Assembly: GCA_025056355.1 (NCBI GenBank)
Contig: JANWWI010000004.1
Coordinates: forward strand, 24,300 to 88,299
DNA from: Casimicrobiaceae bacterium
Lineage (GTDB): Bacteria > Pseudomonadota > Gammaproteobacteria > Burkholderiales > Casimicrobiaceae
Length of the DNA: 64,000 nucleotides
Direction of reading: 5' to 3'
Of the stretch, positions 13,857 to 17,123 are shown piece by piece. The position numbers were made by a program, and so were the translations under genes. Each line of letters opens with the position of its first letter. Position 1 is the stretch's first letter. Under the pieces are notes generated by a model. The model saw only the letters and a program-made list of their open reading frames with translations, was not told the origin of the DNA and searched no databases.

Positions 13857-14874
13857 TCGGCAGACGCTCGCCGTGGCCGTGCTGGGCGCCGGCGCTTGGG
13901 GCACGGCGATCGCGGTTCGGCTTGCCGCGGAGCCGGCGCGCCGCGTTCGTCTGTGGGGGCACCGCCCCGAGGCTCTCCGCGCGATCGCACAAAGCCGACT
14001 CAACCCGCGCTTGCCCGGCATCGCGGTGCCAGAGCGCCTCAACGTGTGTGTGGCGATCGAGCAAGCGCTCGAGGGTGCGGATGTGGTGCTTCTTGCGGCT
14101 CCGATTGCCGCTACGGAGCCGCTTGCGCAGGCGGTGGCCCGGCTTCGCCCGCAGGCGTTTGTGCTTTCGCTGGCCAAGGGTTTTGTGGCAACGCCGGCCG
14201 AGGCGCGCGACGCGCCAGCGCTTGCGCTCGCGCACGAGGCCTTGGCCCGGGCGGGGTGCGCGCGCGCCGGGTTGTTTGCGGGCCCCAGCTTTGCGCATGA
14301 GGTCGCGCAGGGGCTGCCGCTTGCGCTTGTGTGCGCGCTTGAGCGGCTCGAGGAGGCCACAACCGTTGCCCGCTGGTTGCGCGATCCGGGGATGCGCATC
14401 TACGCGACGGCGGACCGCACGGGTGTTGCGCTTTGCGGAGCGCTCAAGAACGTCTACGCGATCGGTGCCGGCGTCTCCGATGGCCTGGGCCTCGGTGCGA
14501 ATGCGCGCGCGGCGCTTGTGACGCGCTCGTTGGCCGAGCTACGGCGACTGGTCCTTGCCGCAGGCGGCAGCGCCGAGACAGTGGCTGGGCTCGCAGGCGT
14601 CGGCGATCTCATGCTCAGCACAAGCGGTGATGCCTCGCGCAACCGACAGCTCGGACTGGCGCTTGCGCGCGGCGAACCCGTCGAGGCGATCGCGGCGCGG
14701 CTCGGACACGTCGTCGAAGGCGTGGCAAGCGCTTCACACGCCTGCGCATACGCCGCACGCCTCGGCGTGGAGATGCCGATTGCCGAAACCGTGGCCGCGC
14801 TGCTAACAGCGCGAATCGATGCGCAGGCCGCGATTCGCCAACTGCTTGAGCGCGAGCCACGCGCGGAGTTTTGA
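13846..14874 (+). CDS. gpsA: NAD(P)H-dependent glycerol-3-phosphate dehydrogenase
   Basis: 'VLGAGAWGTA', 'GPSFAHEV', 'GALKNVYAI', 'GLAGVGDL', 'SRN', 'EG'. TTG start assumed. Confidence 0.93.
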   Translation: MVSDRQTLAVAVLGAGAWGTAIAVRLAAEPARRVRLWGHRPEALRAIAQSRLNPRLPGIAVPERLNVCVAIEQALEGADVVLLAAPIAATEPLAQAVARLRPQAFVLSLAKGFVATPAEARDAPALALAHEALARAGCARAGLFAGPSFAHEVAQGLPLALVCALERLEEATTVARWLRDPGMRIYATADRTGVALCGALKNVYAIGAGVSDGLGLGANARAALVTRSLAELRRLVLAAGGSAETVAGLAGVGDLMLSTSGDASRNRQLGLALARGEPVEAIAARLGHVVEGVASASHACAYAARLGVEMPIAETVAALLTARIDAQAAIRQLLEREPRAEF

Positions 14875-14962
14875 TATCCCGGACAGACCCGCACACAAGA
14901 CCTGCGCTCGCCTCGCGACAGCCGCGCCAGCCACCGCGGGGCAAAAGCCACTCACACCCGCC

Positions 14963-14989
14963 AAGAAAAAGGCCCGCGCGAGGCGGGCC
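14963..14989 (-). terminator. Rho-independent terminator downstream of the 53-aa gene
   Basis: Minus strand GGCCCGC-CTCGC-GCGGGCC followed by TTTTTCTT. Confidence 0.75.
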
Positions 14990-15051
14990 GAAGGGATCAC
15001 GAGAAGATTCGCGAGGGGTGACCGGGGGAGGAAAGCACCCGCTGCGCGAGG

Positions 15052-15213
15052 TCAGTACACGAGGCGCGCCGCGGCGACGCGATCGCTGAGTCGTTCAAAC
15101 TCGCGCAGTGTCTCGATCTCGCCGTCATCGGCTCGAGCCCCGGAGACGAGCAACACCTCTTCCGCGATCGGAGTGCGACCCAGATTGGCAAAGTCAAGCA
15201 ACTGCGTATCCAT
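15052..15213 (-). CDS. 53-aa small protein (not in the ORF track)
   Basis: MDTQLLDFANLGRTPIAEEVLLVSGARADDGEIETLREFERLSDRVAAARLVY*; AGAGG Shine-Dalgarno, sigma54 promoter and terminator. Confidence 0.75.
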   Translation of the reverse strand: MDTQLLDFANLGRTPIAEEVLLVSGARADDGEIETLREFERLSDRVAAARLVY

Positions 15214-15243
15214 GGCTAACCTCTACTGACGCACTACTTCCGG

Positions 15244-15259
15244 AGCGAGTTTCGTGCCA
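15244..15259 (-). promoter_or_regulatory. Sigma54 (-24/-12) promoter of the 53-aa gene
   Basis: TGGCACGAAACTCGCT: perfect TGGCACG -24 box and GG-N10-GC spacing. Confidence 0.75.
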
Positions 15260-15278
15260 TCTCACGGTATGGACGGAT

Positions 15279-15291
15279 AATCAACCACTTA
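15279..15291 (+). promoter_or_regulatory. IHF binding site
   Basis: AATCAACCACTTA matches WATCAANNNNTTR exactly, just upstream of the -24 box. Confidence 0.65.
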
Positions 15292-15342
15292 CGTGACATT
15301 GAGCGCCCGCAAGCCGTTGAACGGGCGCTTTTCCGAGTCGCC

Positions 15343-15364
15343 ACTGTCGCAAACGCGCGACAGT
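15343..15364. promoter_or_regulatory. Candidate enhancer (UAS) for a sigma54 activator
   Basis: Perfect inverted repeat ACTGTCGC-N6-GCGACAGT (TGT-N12-ACA), about 110-130 bp upstream of the predicted TSS. Confidence 0.55.
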
Positions 15365-15560
15365 TTGCCGATGGTGTCTTGTAAAAGCTTGATTCGACGA
15401 GGTTTCGCGTGTTGCCAAACGGCGACGCGCGCGCAAGCAGTCCATGGGCTGAGTCGTGTATTCGAGACAGGCGGCGGCATGGCTTGCCACCGCCCGCGCT
15501 TACAACTGCTTGCACCATGCGCTTGCCTTGTGCCGACGAGCGCCAAGAATCTGCCGAGCG

Positions 15561-17123
15561 ATGCGGATTGCGGGTCGACTCATTCGCCAGTTCGTGGTGG
15601 TTGCAGCGGGGCTCGGCGCCTTCCTCTTATCGCCGCTCGTCTGGGCCGGCATGGGCATCGAGGAGGCCCGTCATCTGCTCGAGAGGACGGGTTTCGGTGT
15701 CGCGCCGGCCGAGGTTGCCCGCTTTGCCCGCTTGAGGCGCGAGCAGGCCGTTGACGAGCTGCTTGCGCGCGTGCAGCGTCGTGCCGTTGTTGCGCCGCCT
15801 GCCTGGGCGGAGCGCTACGAGCGCGTCTTTCGCCCCGACATGACGCCCGAGGAGCGCCAGCAGGCCAATCGTCGCGAACTGCTCGAGCGCGGCCTCGAAC
15901 TGCGCGCTTGGTGGGTGGCCGAGATGCTTGCCACGCCTTCGCCGCTGACCGAGCGCATGACGCTTTTCTGGCACAACCACTTTGCCACCTCGCAGCAAAA
16001 GGTGCGCTCGGCGTATCTCATGTATCGCCAAAACGTGCTCTTGCGCGAGCATGCGCTTGGCAATTTCGCGGTGCTTTTGCGCGAGCTCGCCAAGGATCCC
16101 GCCATGCTCATCTACCTGGACGGCGCGCAGAACCGTCGGGACGCGCCGAACGAAAACTTCGCGCGCGAGGTGATGGAGCTCTTCACGCTCGGGGAGGGGC
16201 GCTACAGCGAACAAGACGTCAAAGAGGCTGCGCGGGCGCTTACCGGCTGGTCGGTTGATCTCGAGACAGGTCAGTTTCGCTTCCGCCCAGCCTTGCACGA
16301 TCCGGGCGAAAAAACCATCCTTGGGCAACGCGGACGTTTTACGGGCGAAGACCTGGTTCGGCTGCTCGCCGAGCAGCCAGCAACGGCTGAATTCATCACC
16401 ACGAAGCTCTGGCGTGAGTTCGTCGGCGAGCCGCTGCCCGAAGATCGCGCCGAAATCGAGCGGCTTGCCGCGGCTTTTCGCACCAGCGGGCTTGAGCTCA
16501 AGCCGCTCGTGCGCGGGATTTTGCTCTCAGAACGATTCTGGTTGCCCGGGCGGCGCGGCACGCTTGTGAAATCGCCGGTCGACCTCGTGATCGGAACGCT
16601 GCGCGGCTTTGGCGTCGTCGTGGAAGATCCCATGCCTTTTGCGATCGTGCTCAGGCAGCTGGGCCAAGATCTGTTTGCTCCACCCAATGTCAAAGGCTGG
16701 CCAAGCGGCGAGGCCTGGTTGACCACAAGCACGCTGATGGCGCGAAAAAGCTTTCTCGACCGCCTCTTCCGCGCCGAGGAACAGCCCATGCTCGGCTCAC
16801 GCATGAGCGAGGCTCAAGGCGGGCGCGTGGCGGGATCCGCTTCCGCGCTCGTCGATCTGGAAGCTGCCGGCTCCCGGCCGGGTCGCGCCCGCATGCGACG
16901 ATCGTTGAGGGCTGCGGCCGGCCCGATGGGCGCGGCGGTCGCCTTCGACGCCCAGGCCTTTCTTGCGCGCTTCGGCGTCAGCGGCGAAGACGAAGCACGC
17001 GAGCGCGCAATCGAGCACATGCTTGCGCTCAAGCCGGTTCATGCAGCGCAGCTTGCGCAAGCGCGCGAAGCGCTTGCCTTCGTGCGTGCGCTTGCGCTTG
17101 ACCCTGCCTACCAACTCAAATAA
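15561..17123 (+). CDS. DUF1800 family protein
   Basis: 'ERMTLFWHNHFATS', 'PAMLIYLDG', 'PNENFAREVMELFTLG', 'PPNVKGW'. Start approximate. Confidence 0.9.
   Translation: MRIAGRLIRQFVVVAAGLGAFLLSPLVWAGMGIEEARHLLERTGFGVAPAEVARFARLRREQAVDELLARVQRRAVVAPPAWAERYERVFRPDMTPEERQQANRRELLERGLELRAWWVAEMLATPSPLTERMTLFWHNHFATSQQKVRSAYLMYRQNVLLREHALGNFAVLLRELAKDPAMLIYLDGAQNRRDAPNENFAREVMELFTLGEGRYSEQDVKEAARALTGWSVDLETGQFRFRPALHDPGEKTILGQRGRFTGEDLVRLLAEQPATAEFITTKLWREFVGEPLPEDRAEIERLAAAFRTSGLELKPLVRGILLSERFWLPGRRGTLVKSPVDLVIGTLRGFGVVVEDPMPFAIVLRQLGQDLFAPPNVKGWPSGEAWLTTSTLMARKSFLDRLFRAEEQPMLGSRMSEAQGGRVAGSASALVDLEAAGSRPGRARMRRSLRAAAGPMGAAVAFDAQAFLARFGVSGEDEARERAIEHMLALKPVHAAQLAQAREALAFVRALALDPAYQLK

What the first reader, a model, noticed from the sequence alone, without database searches (positions are those of the whole stretch)
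14963..15364. Unannotated 53-aa gene with a complete sigma54 + IHF + enhancer promoter and its own terminator
Seen, in order on the minus strand: inverted repeat ACTGTCGC-N6-GCGACAGT (15343-15364); an exact IHF consensus (15279-15291); TGGCACG-N4-TCGCT -24/-12 box (15244-15259); AGAGG RBS; ORF MDTQLLDFANLGRTPIAEEVLLVSGARADDGEIETLREFERLSDRVAAARLVY; and a GC hairpin + U-tract (14963-14989). The ORF is too short for the supplied ORF track. Known: this UAS-IHF-sigma54 layout is the textbook architecture of enhancer-activated promoters. Inference: a tightly regulated monocistronic acidic small protein of unknown function, possibly a regulator or adaptor acting through its C-terminal helix.
Basis: partly seen in the sequence, partly recalled or inferred. 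Interest (0 to 1): 0.75.

Follow-up and report, generated by a model that had tools for sequence, protein, structure and literature searches.

The report
GlrR/sigma54-driven small protein plus RNA hairpin
A real 53-codon gene in Casimicrobium bacteria is switched on by an envelope-stress-type (GlrR/QseF-like) sigma54 enhancer promoter, and its tail carries an RNA hairpin more conserved than the protein, so the transcript probably acts both as an mRNA and as a regulatory RNA.

Summary
The 53-aa ORF is coding: 29 distinct orthologues all have exactly 53 codons, and dN/dS is 0.13 in the C-terminal half.

Three points sharpen the finding.
- The inverted repeat is TGTC-N10-GACA, the published GlrR/QseF site. 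In relatives two such sites and two IHF sites hold fixed positions, as at enterobacterial glmY/glmZ. The genome has a kinase-lipoprotein-GlrR operon. In six other Burkholderiales genomes a GlrR orthologue sits directly next to a promoter of the same design.
- The 3'UTR is more conserved than the ORF. It has a 12-bp covarying stem, an invariant 15-nt loop UUUUCCUCCCCCGGU (CUUU in the window), a C/U-rich linker and a terminator. This looks like an Hfq-type sRNA module with anti-Shine-Dalgarno seeds.
- Protein and hairpin always co-occur, one copy per genome, and were found only in Casimicrobium.

Best reading: a GlrR/sigma54-controlled transcript of about 270 nt with two functions, small protein and regulatory RNA. 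The protein's function and the RNA's targets are unknown.

The parts
15452..15469 (.). Degenerate distal activator site TGTCTCGAATACACGACT, one mismatch to TGTC-N10-GACA
   Evidence: Relatives have a second site at -178/-179 with 0-1 mismatch. In the window the distal site lies at -210 and is weaker.
15382..15394 (-). Distal IHF consensus AATCAAGCTTTTA
   Evidence: exact WATCAANNNNTTR. A counterpart lies at -145/-146 in nearly all relatives.
15343..15364 (.). Enhancer (UAS): inverted repeat ACTGTCGC-N6-GCGACAGT. Its core, 15345-15362, is TGTC-N10-GACA, a GlrR/QseF-type activator binding site
   Evidence: The half-sites TGTCG/CGACA are conserved with a free spacer at -112/-113 in relatives. The consensus is published for GlrR (PMC3045617).
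15279..15291 (+). Proximal IHF site AATCAACCACTTA, between the enhancer and the promoter
   Evidence: A counterpart with 0-1 mismatch lies at -32 or -33 from the -24 box in every relative with upstream sequence.
15244..15259 (-). Sigma54 -24/-12 promoter TGGCACG-N4-TCGCT
   Evidence: single match in the window. TGGCACGGAAGCCGCT is conserved in relatives. rpoN is present in the genome.
15214..15233 (-). Predicted 5'UTR of about 20 nt, from the inferred TSS near 15233, with SD AGAGG at 15220-15224
   Evidence: Sequence. The TSS is inferred from the usual sigma54 spacing and has not been mapped.
15052..15213 (-). 53-aa acidic small-protein ORF (MDTQLL...AARLVY), stop TGA at 15054-15052
   Evidence: 29 distinct orthologues, all 53 codons with no stops. 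dN/dS is 0.31 overall and 0.13 for residues 24-53.
15009..15049 (-). 3'UTR hairpin SL1: stem of 5+5 bp in the window (12 bp in relatives). The 15-nt loop CUUUCCUCCCCCGGU, 15035-15021, has 14 invariant positions
   Evidence: 96% of cells are paired, 5 of 12 pairs show compensatory changes, and slid controls give 40-64%. The covariance model finds one copy per genome in 28 of 31 genus genomes.
14990..15008 (-). Single-stranded C/U-rich linker AAUCUUCUCGUGAUCCCUUC, with the invariant core UCUCGUGAUCCC
   Evidence: invariant columns. It is unpaired in the window and L005 folds and mostly unpaired in the others, where L003 and L018 pair a few linker bases.
14963..14989 (-). Intrinsic terminator: 7-bp GC stem, 5-nt loop, U-tract
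   Evidence: A terminator is present in every relative whose contig reaches that far, though its sequence varies.

Best explanation
This is a monocistronic transcription unit of about 270 nt with two functions, controlled by a GlrK/GlrR (QseE/QseF-type) two-component system.

Inferred mechanism, not shown experimentally:
1. Phosphorylated GlrR binds the TGTC-N10-GACA site or sites.
2. IHF bends the DNA at its two sites.
3. GlrR activates sigma54-RNA polymerase at the -24/-12 box.

Two products:
- A 53-aa acidic cytoplasmic protein. It has a poorly constrained N-terminal half, an invariant S-G...D-G-E turn and a conserved amphipathic C-terminal helix, which probably serves as a protein-binding surface.
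- A 3' RNA module. It consists of a covarying hairpin that presents an invariant C/U-rich, anti-Shine-Dalgarno-like loop, then a C/U-rich single strand, then a terminator with a U tail. This is the anatomy of an Hfq-type base-pairing sRNA that would occlude GGAGG-type ribosome-binding sites of target mRNAs. It could act as the full-length RNA or after 3' processing.

The stop codon lies 2-3 nt before the stem. A terminating ribosome would therefore melt the hairpin, which may couple translation to exposure of the seed.
For: Promoter:
- All boxes are present and rare by chance.
- The layout ABS(-178), IHF(-145), ABS(-112), IHF(-32), sigma54 is conserved across the genus, with free spacers inside the ABS.
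- TGTCN10GACA with flanking IHF sites is the published GlrR architecture at glmY/glmZ (PMC3045617).

Regulator:
- The genome has rpoN.
- It has four enhancer-binding proteins. One matches the GlrR model over its full length (595 bits; the next best model, NtrC, scores 423). It sits in a kinase / 208-aa lipoprotein / regulator operon.
- Its orthologue is present in 33 of 34 genus genomes.
- Genome-wide, only this promoter pairs the two motifs.
- In the wider order the composite pattern occurs in 19 of 401 genomes, against 0 for the reversed control.
- In six of those loci a 59-62% identical GlrR orthologue lies immediately upstream of the promoter.

Protein:
- 29 distinct orthologues, all 53 codons.
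- Codon-position differences are 0.087/0.074/0.379 in the C-terminal half. dN/dS is 0.13 there and 0.31 overall.
- AlphaFold predicts a helix at 30-52 with pLDDT about 83.

RNA:
- The 3'UTR is more conserved than the ORF. 41 of 60 core positions are invariant, while synonymous sites differ by 0.41-0.45.
- The stem covaries: 5 of 12 pairs are compensatory and 96% of cells are paired, against 40-64% when partners are slid.
- Single-sequence folds give the same hairpin, linker and terminator, with z-scores of -3.9 to -6.5 in relatives.
- hfq is present.
- ORF and hairpin co-occur in every genome that has either.
Against: - No transcript, TSS, translation or binding data exist.
- The GlrR match is below NCBIfam's equivalog cut-off (595 against 763 bits). 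Two other enhancer-binding proteins of unknown specificity exist in the genome.
- Target prediction was not informative. In this 64% GC genome the best loop-to-RBS duplexes (-26 kcal/mol against a mean of -12.6, sd 3.3) fall on uncertain start codons. glmS shows nothing special.
- The window's own hairpin is only modestly more stable than shuffles (z = -1.75).
- An invariant loop could equally be a protein-binding site or a cis element.
- There is no match to any Rfam family, so no precedent by homology.
Confidence: 0.55

Rival explanations
1. An ordinary small-protein mRNA. In this reading the conserved 3'UTR hairpin acts only in cis. It might fold back on the mRNA's own Shine-Dalgarno sequence, as the UCCCC motif of the S. 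aureus icaR 3'UTR does (my own knowledge). It might instead stabilise the 3' end or bind a protein that controls this mRNA. There would be no trans-acting sRNA function.
For: - The loop contains CCUCC and UUCCU, which can pair with the gene's own SD variants AGAGG, GUGAGG and AAGGAA.
- No convincing trans target was found.
- Hairpin and ORF never occur apart.
Against: - The alignment fold of 27 whole transcripts shows no conserved 5'-3' pairing. The 3' module folds on its own.
- The SD region varies between species while the loop is invariant, so there is no co-variation between them.
- A second invariant C/U-rich single strand plus a terminator with a U tail is the typical layout of a trans-acting sRNA.
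Confidence: 0.28
2. The promoter is activated by an enhancer-binding protein other than the GlrR-like one. The candidates are the C159 and C11 regulators of unknown specificity.
For: - Two further sigma54 activators of unknown specificity are encoded.
- The GlrR-like protein scores below the equivalog cut-off.
- The regulator gene is not adjacent to the small gene. It lies 17 to 190 kb away where both are on one contig.
Against: - The site equals the experimentally defined GlrR consensus.
- GlrR orthologues lie directly beside promoters of identical design in six other Burkholderiales genomes.
- A TGTC-N10-GACA near the C159 regulator lies inside a coding region with no sigma54 box downstream.
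Confidence: 0.15
3. The RNA is the only functional product, acting for example as a protein-sequestering decoy in the manner of GlmY with RapZ. The ORF would be an untranslated by-product of RNA-level constraint.
For: - GlrR's classic targets are non-coding sRNAs.
- rapZ is present next to rpoN.
- The N-terminal 23 codons evolve almost neutrally, with dN/dS 0.68.
Against: - The coding signature is strong and frame-specific in the C-terminal half. dN/dS is 0.14 in the sense frame, 1.9-3.2 in four of the other five frames and 0.20 in the wobble-sharing antisense frame, which has stops in 3 of 29 sequences. The sense frame has none.
- The ATG and SD are conserved and the length is exactly 53 codons in all 29 sequences.
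- There is no Rfam GlmY/GlmZ match.
Confidence: 0.07

Closest known systems
glmY / glmZ promoters of Enterobacteriaceae (GlrK/GlrR = QseE/QseF, sigma54, IHF)
   Same: - A sigma54 -24/-12 promoter, TGTCN10GACA activator sites and IHF sites flanking the proximal activator site (PMC3045617).
- A kinase-lipoprotein-regulator operon.
- The product is a short, terminator-ended transcript with conserved RNA structure.
   Different: - The transcript has no sequence or structure homology to GlmY/GlmZ (no Rfam hit).
- It encodes a conserved protein.
- There are two activator sites rather than three.
- The gene is not adjacent to glrK.
- No complementarity to glmS was found.
ccaF1-CcsR1-4 locus of Rhodobacter sphaeroides (small DUF1127 protein with 'cuckoo' anti-SD sRNAs in its 3'UTR)
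   Same: A small-protein ORF is followed in the same transcript by a hairpin whose loop carries a C/U-rich anti-Shine-Dalgarno motif. Protein and RNA are always linked (PMC8034643).
   Different: - The protein is acidic and gives no DUF1127 match. DUF1127 was found in 1 of 61 Burkholderiales genomes searched.
- There is one hairpin with CCUCCCCC rather than several double hairpins with CCUCCUCCC.
- There is no Rfam ar14 match.
- The promoter is sigma54/GlrR rather than RpoHI/HII.
Dual-function sRNAs such as SgrS/SgrT, RNAIII/hld, SR1/SR1P and AzuCR (my own knowledge)
   Same: A short stress-induced transcript combines a small ORF with a separate region that has the features of a base-pairing seed.
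   Different: Neither function is demonstrated here. The ORF takes up 60% of the RNA. To my knowledge no described dual-function sRNA depends on sigma54/GlrR.
GlrR-adjacent sigma54 promoters of other Burkholderiales, found here
   Same: The same composite promoter, TGTC-N10-GACA followed 80-100 bp later by TGGCAYG-N4-YYGCW.
   Different: There the genes driven are periplasmic BON-domain proteins, a GT2 membrane glycosyltransferase, an EF-hand protein or a 44-aa secreted peptide. None is this cytoplasmic peptide with its hairpin.

Membership tests
Sigma54-dependent, enhancer-activated promoter | -24 GG and -12 GC elements with exact spacing (TGGCACG-N4-TTGCW) | tested here: met
   TGGCACGAAACTCGCT at 15259-15244, one mismatch (C for T at -14). 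It is the single match in the window and is conserved in relatives.
Sigma54-dependent, enhancer-activated promoter | The organism encodes sigma54 and at least one enhancer-binding ATPase | tested here: met
   rpoN DNA-binding domain, 221 bits. Four Sigma54_activat proteins.
Sigma54-dependent, enhancer-activated promoter | Transcription starts about 12 nt downstream of the -12 GC and depends on rpoN | not testable with these tools
GlrR/QseF regulon (glmY-type promoter) | Activator binding sites matching TGTCN10GACA upstream of the sigma54 promoter | tested here: met
   An exact site at 15345-15362. Sites at -112/-113 and -178/-179 are conserved in relatives, with only the half-sites constrained. 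The consensus comes from PMC3045617.
GlrR/QseF regulon (glmY-type promoter) | IHF sites flanking the proximal activator site | tested here: met
   Exact IHF consensus matches at 15279-15291 and 15382-15394. These are 2 of only 3 in the 64-kb window, and both are conserved in relatives.
GlrR/QseF regulon (glmY-type promoter) | A GlrR orthologue encoded in a glrK - lipoprotein - glrR operon | tested here: inconclusive
   The best NCBIfam model is GlrR, matched over its full length at 595 bits. This is below the equivalog cut-off of 763. The kinase, 208-aa lipoprotein and regulator are in the expected order. The lipoprotein matches no family. Orthologues sit next to promoters of the same design in six other genomes.
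GlrR/QseF regulon (glmY-type promoter) | GlrR binds the site and is required for expression | not testable with these tools
   This needs EMSA, a reporter assay or a mutant.
GlmY/GlmZ sRNA family (Rfam) | Match to the covariance models | tested here: not met
   cmscan of 14500-15900 on both strands at E up to 1 gave only two chance-level hits to unrelated families.
Cuckoo / CcsR / ar14 sRNAs | Hairpin pairs whose loops each carry CCUCCUCCC, or a match to Rfam ar14 | tested here: not met
   There is a single hairpin, and its loop is UUUUCCUCCCCCGGU, containing CCUCCCCC. There is no Rfam match.
DUF1127 small proteins (CcaF1 type) | Match to Pfam PF06568; arginine-rich domain | tested here: not met
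   None of 17 orthologues matched at E up to 10. There was no six-frame match in the genome at E up to 1. The peptide is acidic, with 11 D/E against 6 R.
Dual-function (coding) sRNA | The ORF is translated into a functional peptide | tested here: inconclusive
   The evolutionary signature of coding is strong. Translation itself has not been observed.
Dual-function (coding) sRNA | A separate region regulates other RNAs by base pairing | not testable with these tools
   The anatomy fits and hfq is present. Target prediction was uninformative.

The most novel reading that the evidence does not exclude
In Casimicrobium the envelope-stress system GlrK/GlrR would have this locus as its only detected output: a sigma54-dependent dual-function RNA unrelated to GlmY/GlmZ. 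Its peptide and its anti-Shine-Dalgarno hairpin would act together. For example, the hairpin would silence a set of envelope-protein mRNAs, the peptide would bind a protein partner, and ribosomes terminating at the stop codon 2-3 nt before the stem would gate exposure of the seed. In this genus a riboregulator would then take the place of the direct BON-protein targets that GlrR has in sister genera.
Probability: 0.25. Interest if true: 0.75.

Novelty: new variant of a known kind. Interest (0 to 1): 0.6.

Why it matters
- Outside Enterobacteriaceae little is known about what GlrR/QseF regulates. This work gives a concrete, conserved target in a wastewater-core genus, Casimicrobium, which to my knowledge has a cultured type strain, C. 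huifangae. It also gives a first sketch of a GlrR regulon across Burkholderiales: BON-domain proteins, a glycosyltransferase and small secreted peptides.
- It defines a new 53-aa protein family and a new structured RNA motif. They are genetically inseparable and share one very clean promoter. That makes a compact system for studying how a single stress signal is split into a protein output and an RNA output.
- The parallel with glmY (same promoter design, unrelated RNA) and with ccaF1-CcsR (same gene-plus-anti-SD-hairpin design, unrelated parts) suggests this design has evolved more than once.

Tried and rejected
- Rfam scan of the locus: no family.
- Pfam, NCBIfam and PDB sequence searches of the peptide and its profile: nothing.
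- Full-library profile search: only the same narrow family, 5 clusters at E up to 1e-10.
- DUF1127 kinship, a lead from the RELAALGDR-like motif: rejected. A profile-profile test was dropped because DUF1127 was found in only 1 of 61 Burkholderiales genomes.
- The covariance model of the hairpin outside the genus gave only chance-level hits. The one inspected, G062, was an unrelated hairpin; two at E about 0.007 in the order search were not inspected.
- glmS as a GlmZ-like target: no notable complementarity.
- Genome-wide loop-to-RBS duplex scan and 9-mer complement scan: not discriminating in a 64% GC genome. A first attempt timed out.
- BON-domain genes of this genome as targets: ordinary SDs only.
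- 5'UTR-3'UTR pairing: not supported by the whole-transcript alignment fold.
- The antisense 136-aa ORF at 14819-15229: rejected. It shares the wobble position, but it has stops in 3 of 29 species and variable length, and it runs through the covarying hairpin.
- A TGTC-N10-GACA near the C159 regulator: inside a coding region with no sigma54 box, so probably chance.
- Fold search of the AlphaFold model: not run, because a single helix at mean pLDDT 67 would give meaningless matches.

Full report
**1.

- the inverted repeat ACTGTCGC-N6-GCGACAGT (15364-15343);
- an exact IHF consensus (15291-15279);
- TGGCACG-N4-TCGCT (15259-15244);
- AGAGG, 6 nt before the ATG at 15213;
- a 53-codon ORF ending in TGA at 15054-15052;
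- a 7-bp GC hairpin followed by TTTTTCTT (14989-14963).

The unit lies in a 690-bp gap between gpsA, which converges on it, and a DUF1800-DUF1501 pair, which diverges from it.

In the 64-kb window the sigma54 box occurs once (0.22 expected) and TGTC-N10-GACA occurs once (0.55 expected). The exact IHF consensus occurs three times (0.26 expected). Two of those three bracket the inverted repeat of this promoter, at 15279-15291 and 15382-15394. In the whole 2.6-Mb genome this is the only sigma54-like box with TGTC-N10-GACA within 260 bp upstream.

**2. Conservation**

A DNA search found the locus in 23 of 24 sampled genomes of the same genus and in no other family. The one outside match, in G034, was a 25-nt segment (query 28-52) that lies in the intergenic region upstream of the enhancer. 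Public protein records name these organisms Casimicrobium or Casimicrobiaceae.

The part conserved at the DNA level was not the promoter or the start of the ORF. It was window 15154-14966, which covers the C-terminal two thirds of the ORF, the 3'UTR and the terminator.

**3. The ORF is a gene**

All 29 distinct orthologous sequences have exactly 53 codons, the same ATG context and no internal stops.

Pairwise differences by codon position in the C-terminal half are 0.087, 0.074 and 0.379. By the Nei-Gojobori method, dN/dS is 0.31 overall, 0.13 for residues 24-53 and 0.68 for residues 1-23.

Four of the other five frames give dN/dS of 1.9-3.2 with stops in most species. The one antisense frame that shares the wobble position gives 0.20 but has stops in 3 of 29 sequences. 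The 136-aa antisense ORF in the window is therefore spurious.

The protein is acidic. Its invariant residues include S24, G25, G31, E32, L42, R45, V46, A48, A49, R50 and L51. AlphaFold with 33 sequences gives a low-confidence N-terminal half and a helix at residues 30-52 with pLDDT about 83.

It matches no Pfam, NCBIfam or PDB family. A profile search of 1.8 billion representative proteins finds only this narrow family. Some public MAG records annotate members as 'hypothetical protein'.

**4. The promoter is of the GlrR/QseF type**

The core of the inverted repeat is TGTC-N10-GACA. This is the consensus determined experimentally for GlrR at the sigma54-dependent glmY and glmZ promoters, where IHF sites flank the proximal activator site (PMC3045617).

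In the relatives the layout is nearly fixed, measured from the TGGCAC of the -24 box:
- an activator site at -178/-179;
- an IHF site at -145/-146;
- an activator site at -112/-113;
- an IHF site at -32 or -33;
- the box TGGCACGGAAGCCGCT.

Inside the activator sites only the half-sites TGTCG and CGACA are kept and the spacer is free. This is the signature of a protein-binding site. In the window's lineage the sites lie at -103 (exact) and -210 (one mismatch).

The genome encodes rpoN and four enhancer-binding proteins:
- NtrC, with NtrB;
- two of unknown specificity;
- one whose best model is GlrR over its full length. It scores 595 bits, against 423 for the next model, NtrC, but is below the equivalog cut-off of 763.

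The GlrR-like gene follows a histidine kinase and a 208-aa lipoprotein, the same order as glrK-qseG-glrR. The orthologue is present in 33 of 34 genus genomes at 80-89% identity.

Independent support comes from the wider order. The composite pattern TGTC-N10-GACA-N(80-100)-TGGCAYG-N4-YYGCW occurs in 19 of 401 Burkholderiales genomes, and never when the pattern is read backwards. In six of these loci a GlrR orthologue of 59-62% identity ends just upstream of the promoter. There the promoter drives periplasmic BON-domain proteins or a GT2 membrane glycosyltransferase.

I therefore assign the activator with about 0.8 confidence. Binding itself has not been shown.

**5. The 3'UTR holds a structured RNA more conserved than the protein**

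From the stop codon onward the alignment reads as follows:

UGACC-ACGCGGGGGUG-UUUUCCUCCCCCGGU-CACCCCUGCGUG-CAC-UUCUCGUGAUCCCC-(terminator)

- 41 of 60 core positions are invariant, while synonymous sites of the adjacent ORF differ by 0.41-0.45.
- The flanks of the invariant 15-nt loop form a 12-bp stem with compensatory changes at 5 of 12 pairs (C-G to U-A, A-U to G-C, U-A to C-G, and others).
- 96% of cells are paired, against 40-64% when partners are slid by 1-3 columns. No shuffle in 500 reached the observed covariation score.
- In the window the lower stem has a different sequence (UCGCG/CGCGA) but the same geometry.
- Single-sequence folds give hairpin, largely unpaired linker and terminator, with z-scores of -1.75 in the window and -3.9 to -6.5 in relatives.
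- A covariance model finds exactly one copy per genome in 28 of 31 genus genomes. It gave only chance-level hits in 11 other genera of the family or in 150 genomes of the order, and the one I inspected was an unrelated hairpin.
- Every genome with the hairpin has the intact ORF just upstream.
- Whole-transcript alignment folding shows no conserved pairing between the 5' and 3' ends.

The loop contains the anti-Shine-Dalgarno core (CCUCC) and the linker (GAUCCCCUC) has a similar C-rich tract. Together with the terminator, the U tail and an hfq gene, this is the usual anatomy of a base-pairing sRNA that masks ribosome-binding sites.

**6. What could not be settled**

I found no targets. Duplex scans against crude gene starts are not discriminating in this GC-rich genome. 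glmS, the target of the GlrR-GlmY/Z circuit in enterics, shows no special complementarity. The genome's BON-domain genes have ordinary SDs.

The peptide's function is unknown. Its conserved amphipathic helix suggests a protein-protein contact, but that is inference.

**7. Comparison with known systems**

- *Promoter.* It works like a glmY/glmZ promoter and meets the sequence-level criteria of that class. The RNA is not a GlmY/GlmZ homologue.
- *Gene layout.* A small ORF with an anti-SD hairpin in its 3'UTR works like the ccaF1-CcsR locus of Rhodobacter (PMC8034643). The protein is not DUF1127, and the RNA does not meet the cuckoo definition: it has one hairpin, the motif is CCUCCCCC, and there is no ar14 match.
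- *Class.* It is best filed as a new, genus-restricted candidate dual-function sRNA under GlrR/sigma54 control.

**8. Verdict**

It misses the identity of the enhancer and the RNA element, which is the most strongly constrained part of the locus.
- Confidence by claim: about 0.9 that the ORF is a real gene; 0.85 that the hairpin is functional; 0.8 that the promoter is GlrR-dependent; 0.4-0.5 that the hairpin acts in trans by base pairing.

Noticed in passing
L064:1501-2063, L068, L070, L072, L063, L075, L076, L067, L069, L074 (other Burkholderiales genera): The same TGTC-N10-GACA + sigma54 promoter drives different genes in other genera. These are small periplasmic BON-domain proteins (4 genomes), a GT2 membrane glycosyltransferase (3), a 44-aa secreted peptide (2) and a secreted EF-hand protein (1). 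In six loci a GlrR orthologue lies directly upstream. This is a candidate envelope-related GlrR/QseF regulon in Burkholderiales.
   Followed up: partly
G000 outside the window, e.g. C100:8131-8660, C99:210-960, C84:10270-10530: At least 24 copies of a REP/MITE-like palindromic element, often in tandem. The consensus is CCTTCGCAAGCGAAGGGGAGGAC-N8-14-GTTCTCCCCTGCGCCGCAAGGCGTAGG. Its arm GGGGAGGA is complementary to the invariant hairpin loop UCCUCCCC. This may be coincidence.
   Followed up: no
   Followed up: no
L003:440-520 (minus strand), L004, L006, L009, L012: In several relatives the terminator hairpin after the small gene is duplicated or triplicated in tandem, for example GCCCGCTTCGTGCGGGCCTTTTTT repeated about 25 nt apart.
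   Followed up: no
window 15563-17123 and relatives' loci: The divergent DUF1800(-DUF1501) gene is the upstream neighbour of the small gene in at least 15 of the 28 genus genomes, limited by 3-kb loci. gpsA downstream is kept in only four relatives (L002, L060 and L011/L058). No sigma54 box faces DUF1800.
   Followed up: partly
window 14819-15229 (+): A 136-aa antisense ORF covers the whole small gene and its 3'UTR. It shares the wobble position with the real frame and so mimics a coding signature (dN/dS 0.20). It is interrupted in 3 of 29 species.
   Followed up: yes
G000, G016, G122 against the rest of the genus: The window's lineage (genomes of 2.5-2.8 Mb) has a distinct variant of the locus. 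The peptide's N-terminus is MDTxLL rather than MDMF, the lower stem of the hairpin is remodelled, and the activator site is shifted to -103 in the window (at -114 in L002 and L060). The other genus genomes are 3.1-5 Mb.
   Followed up: no
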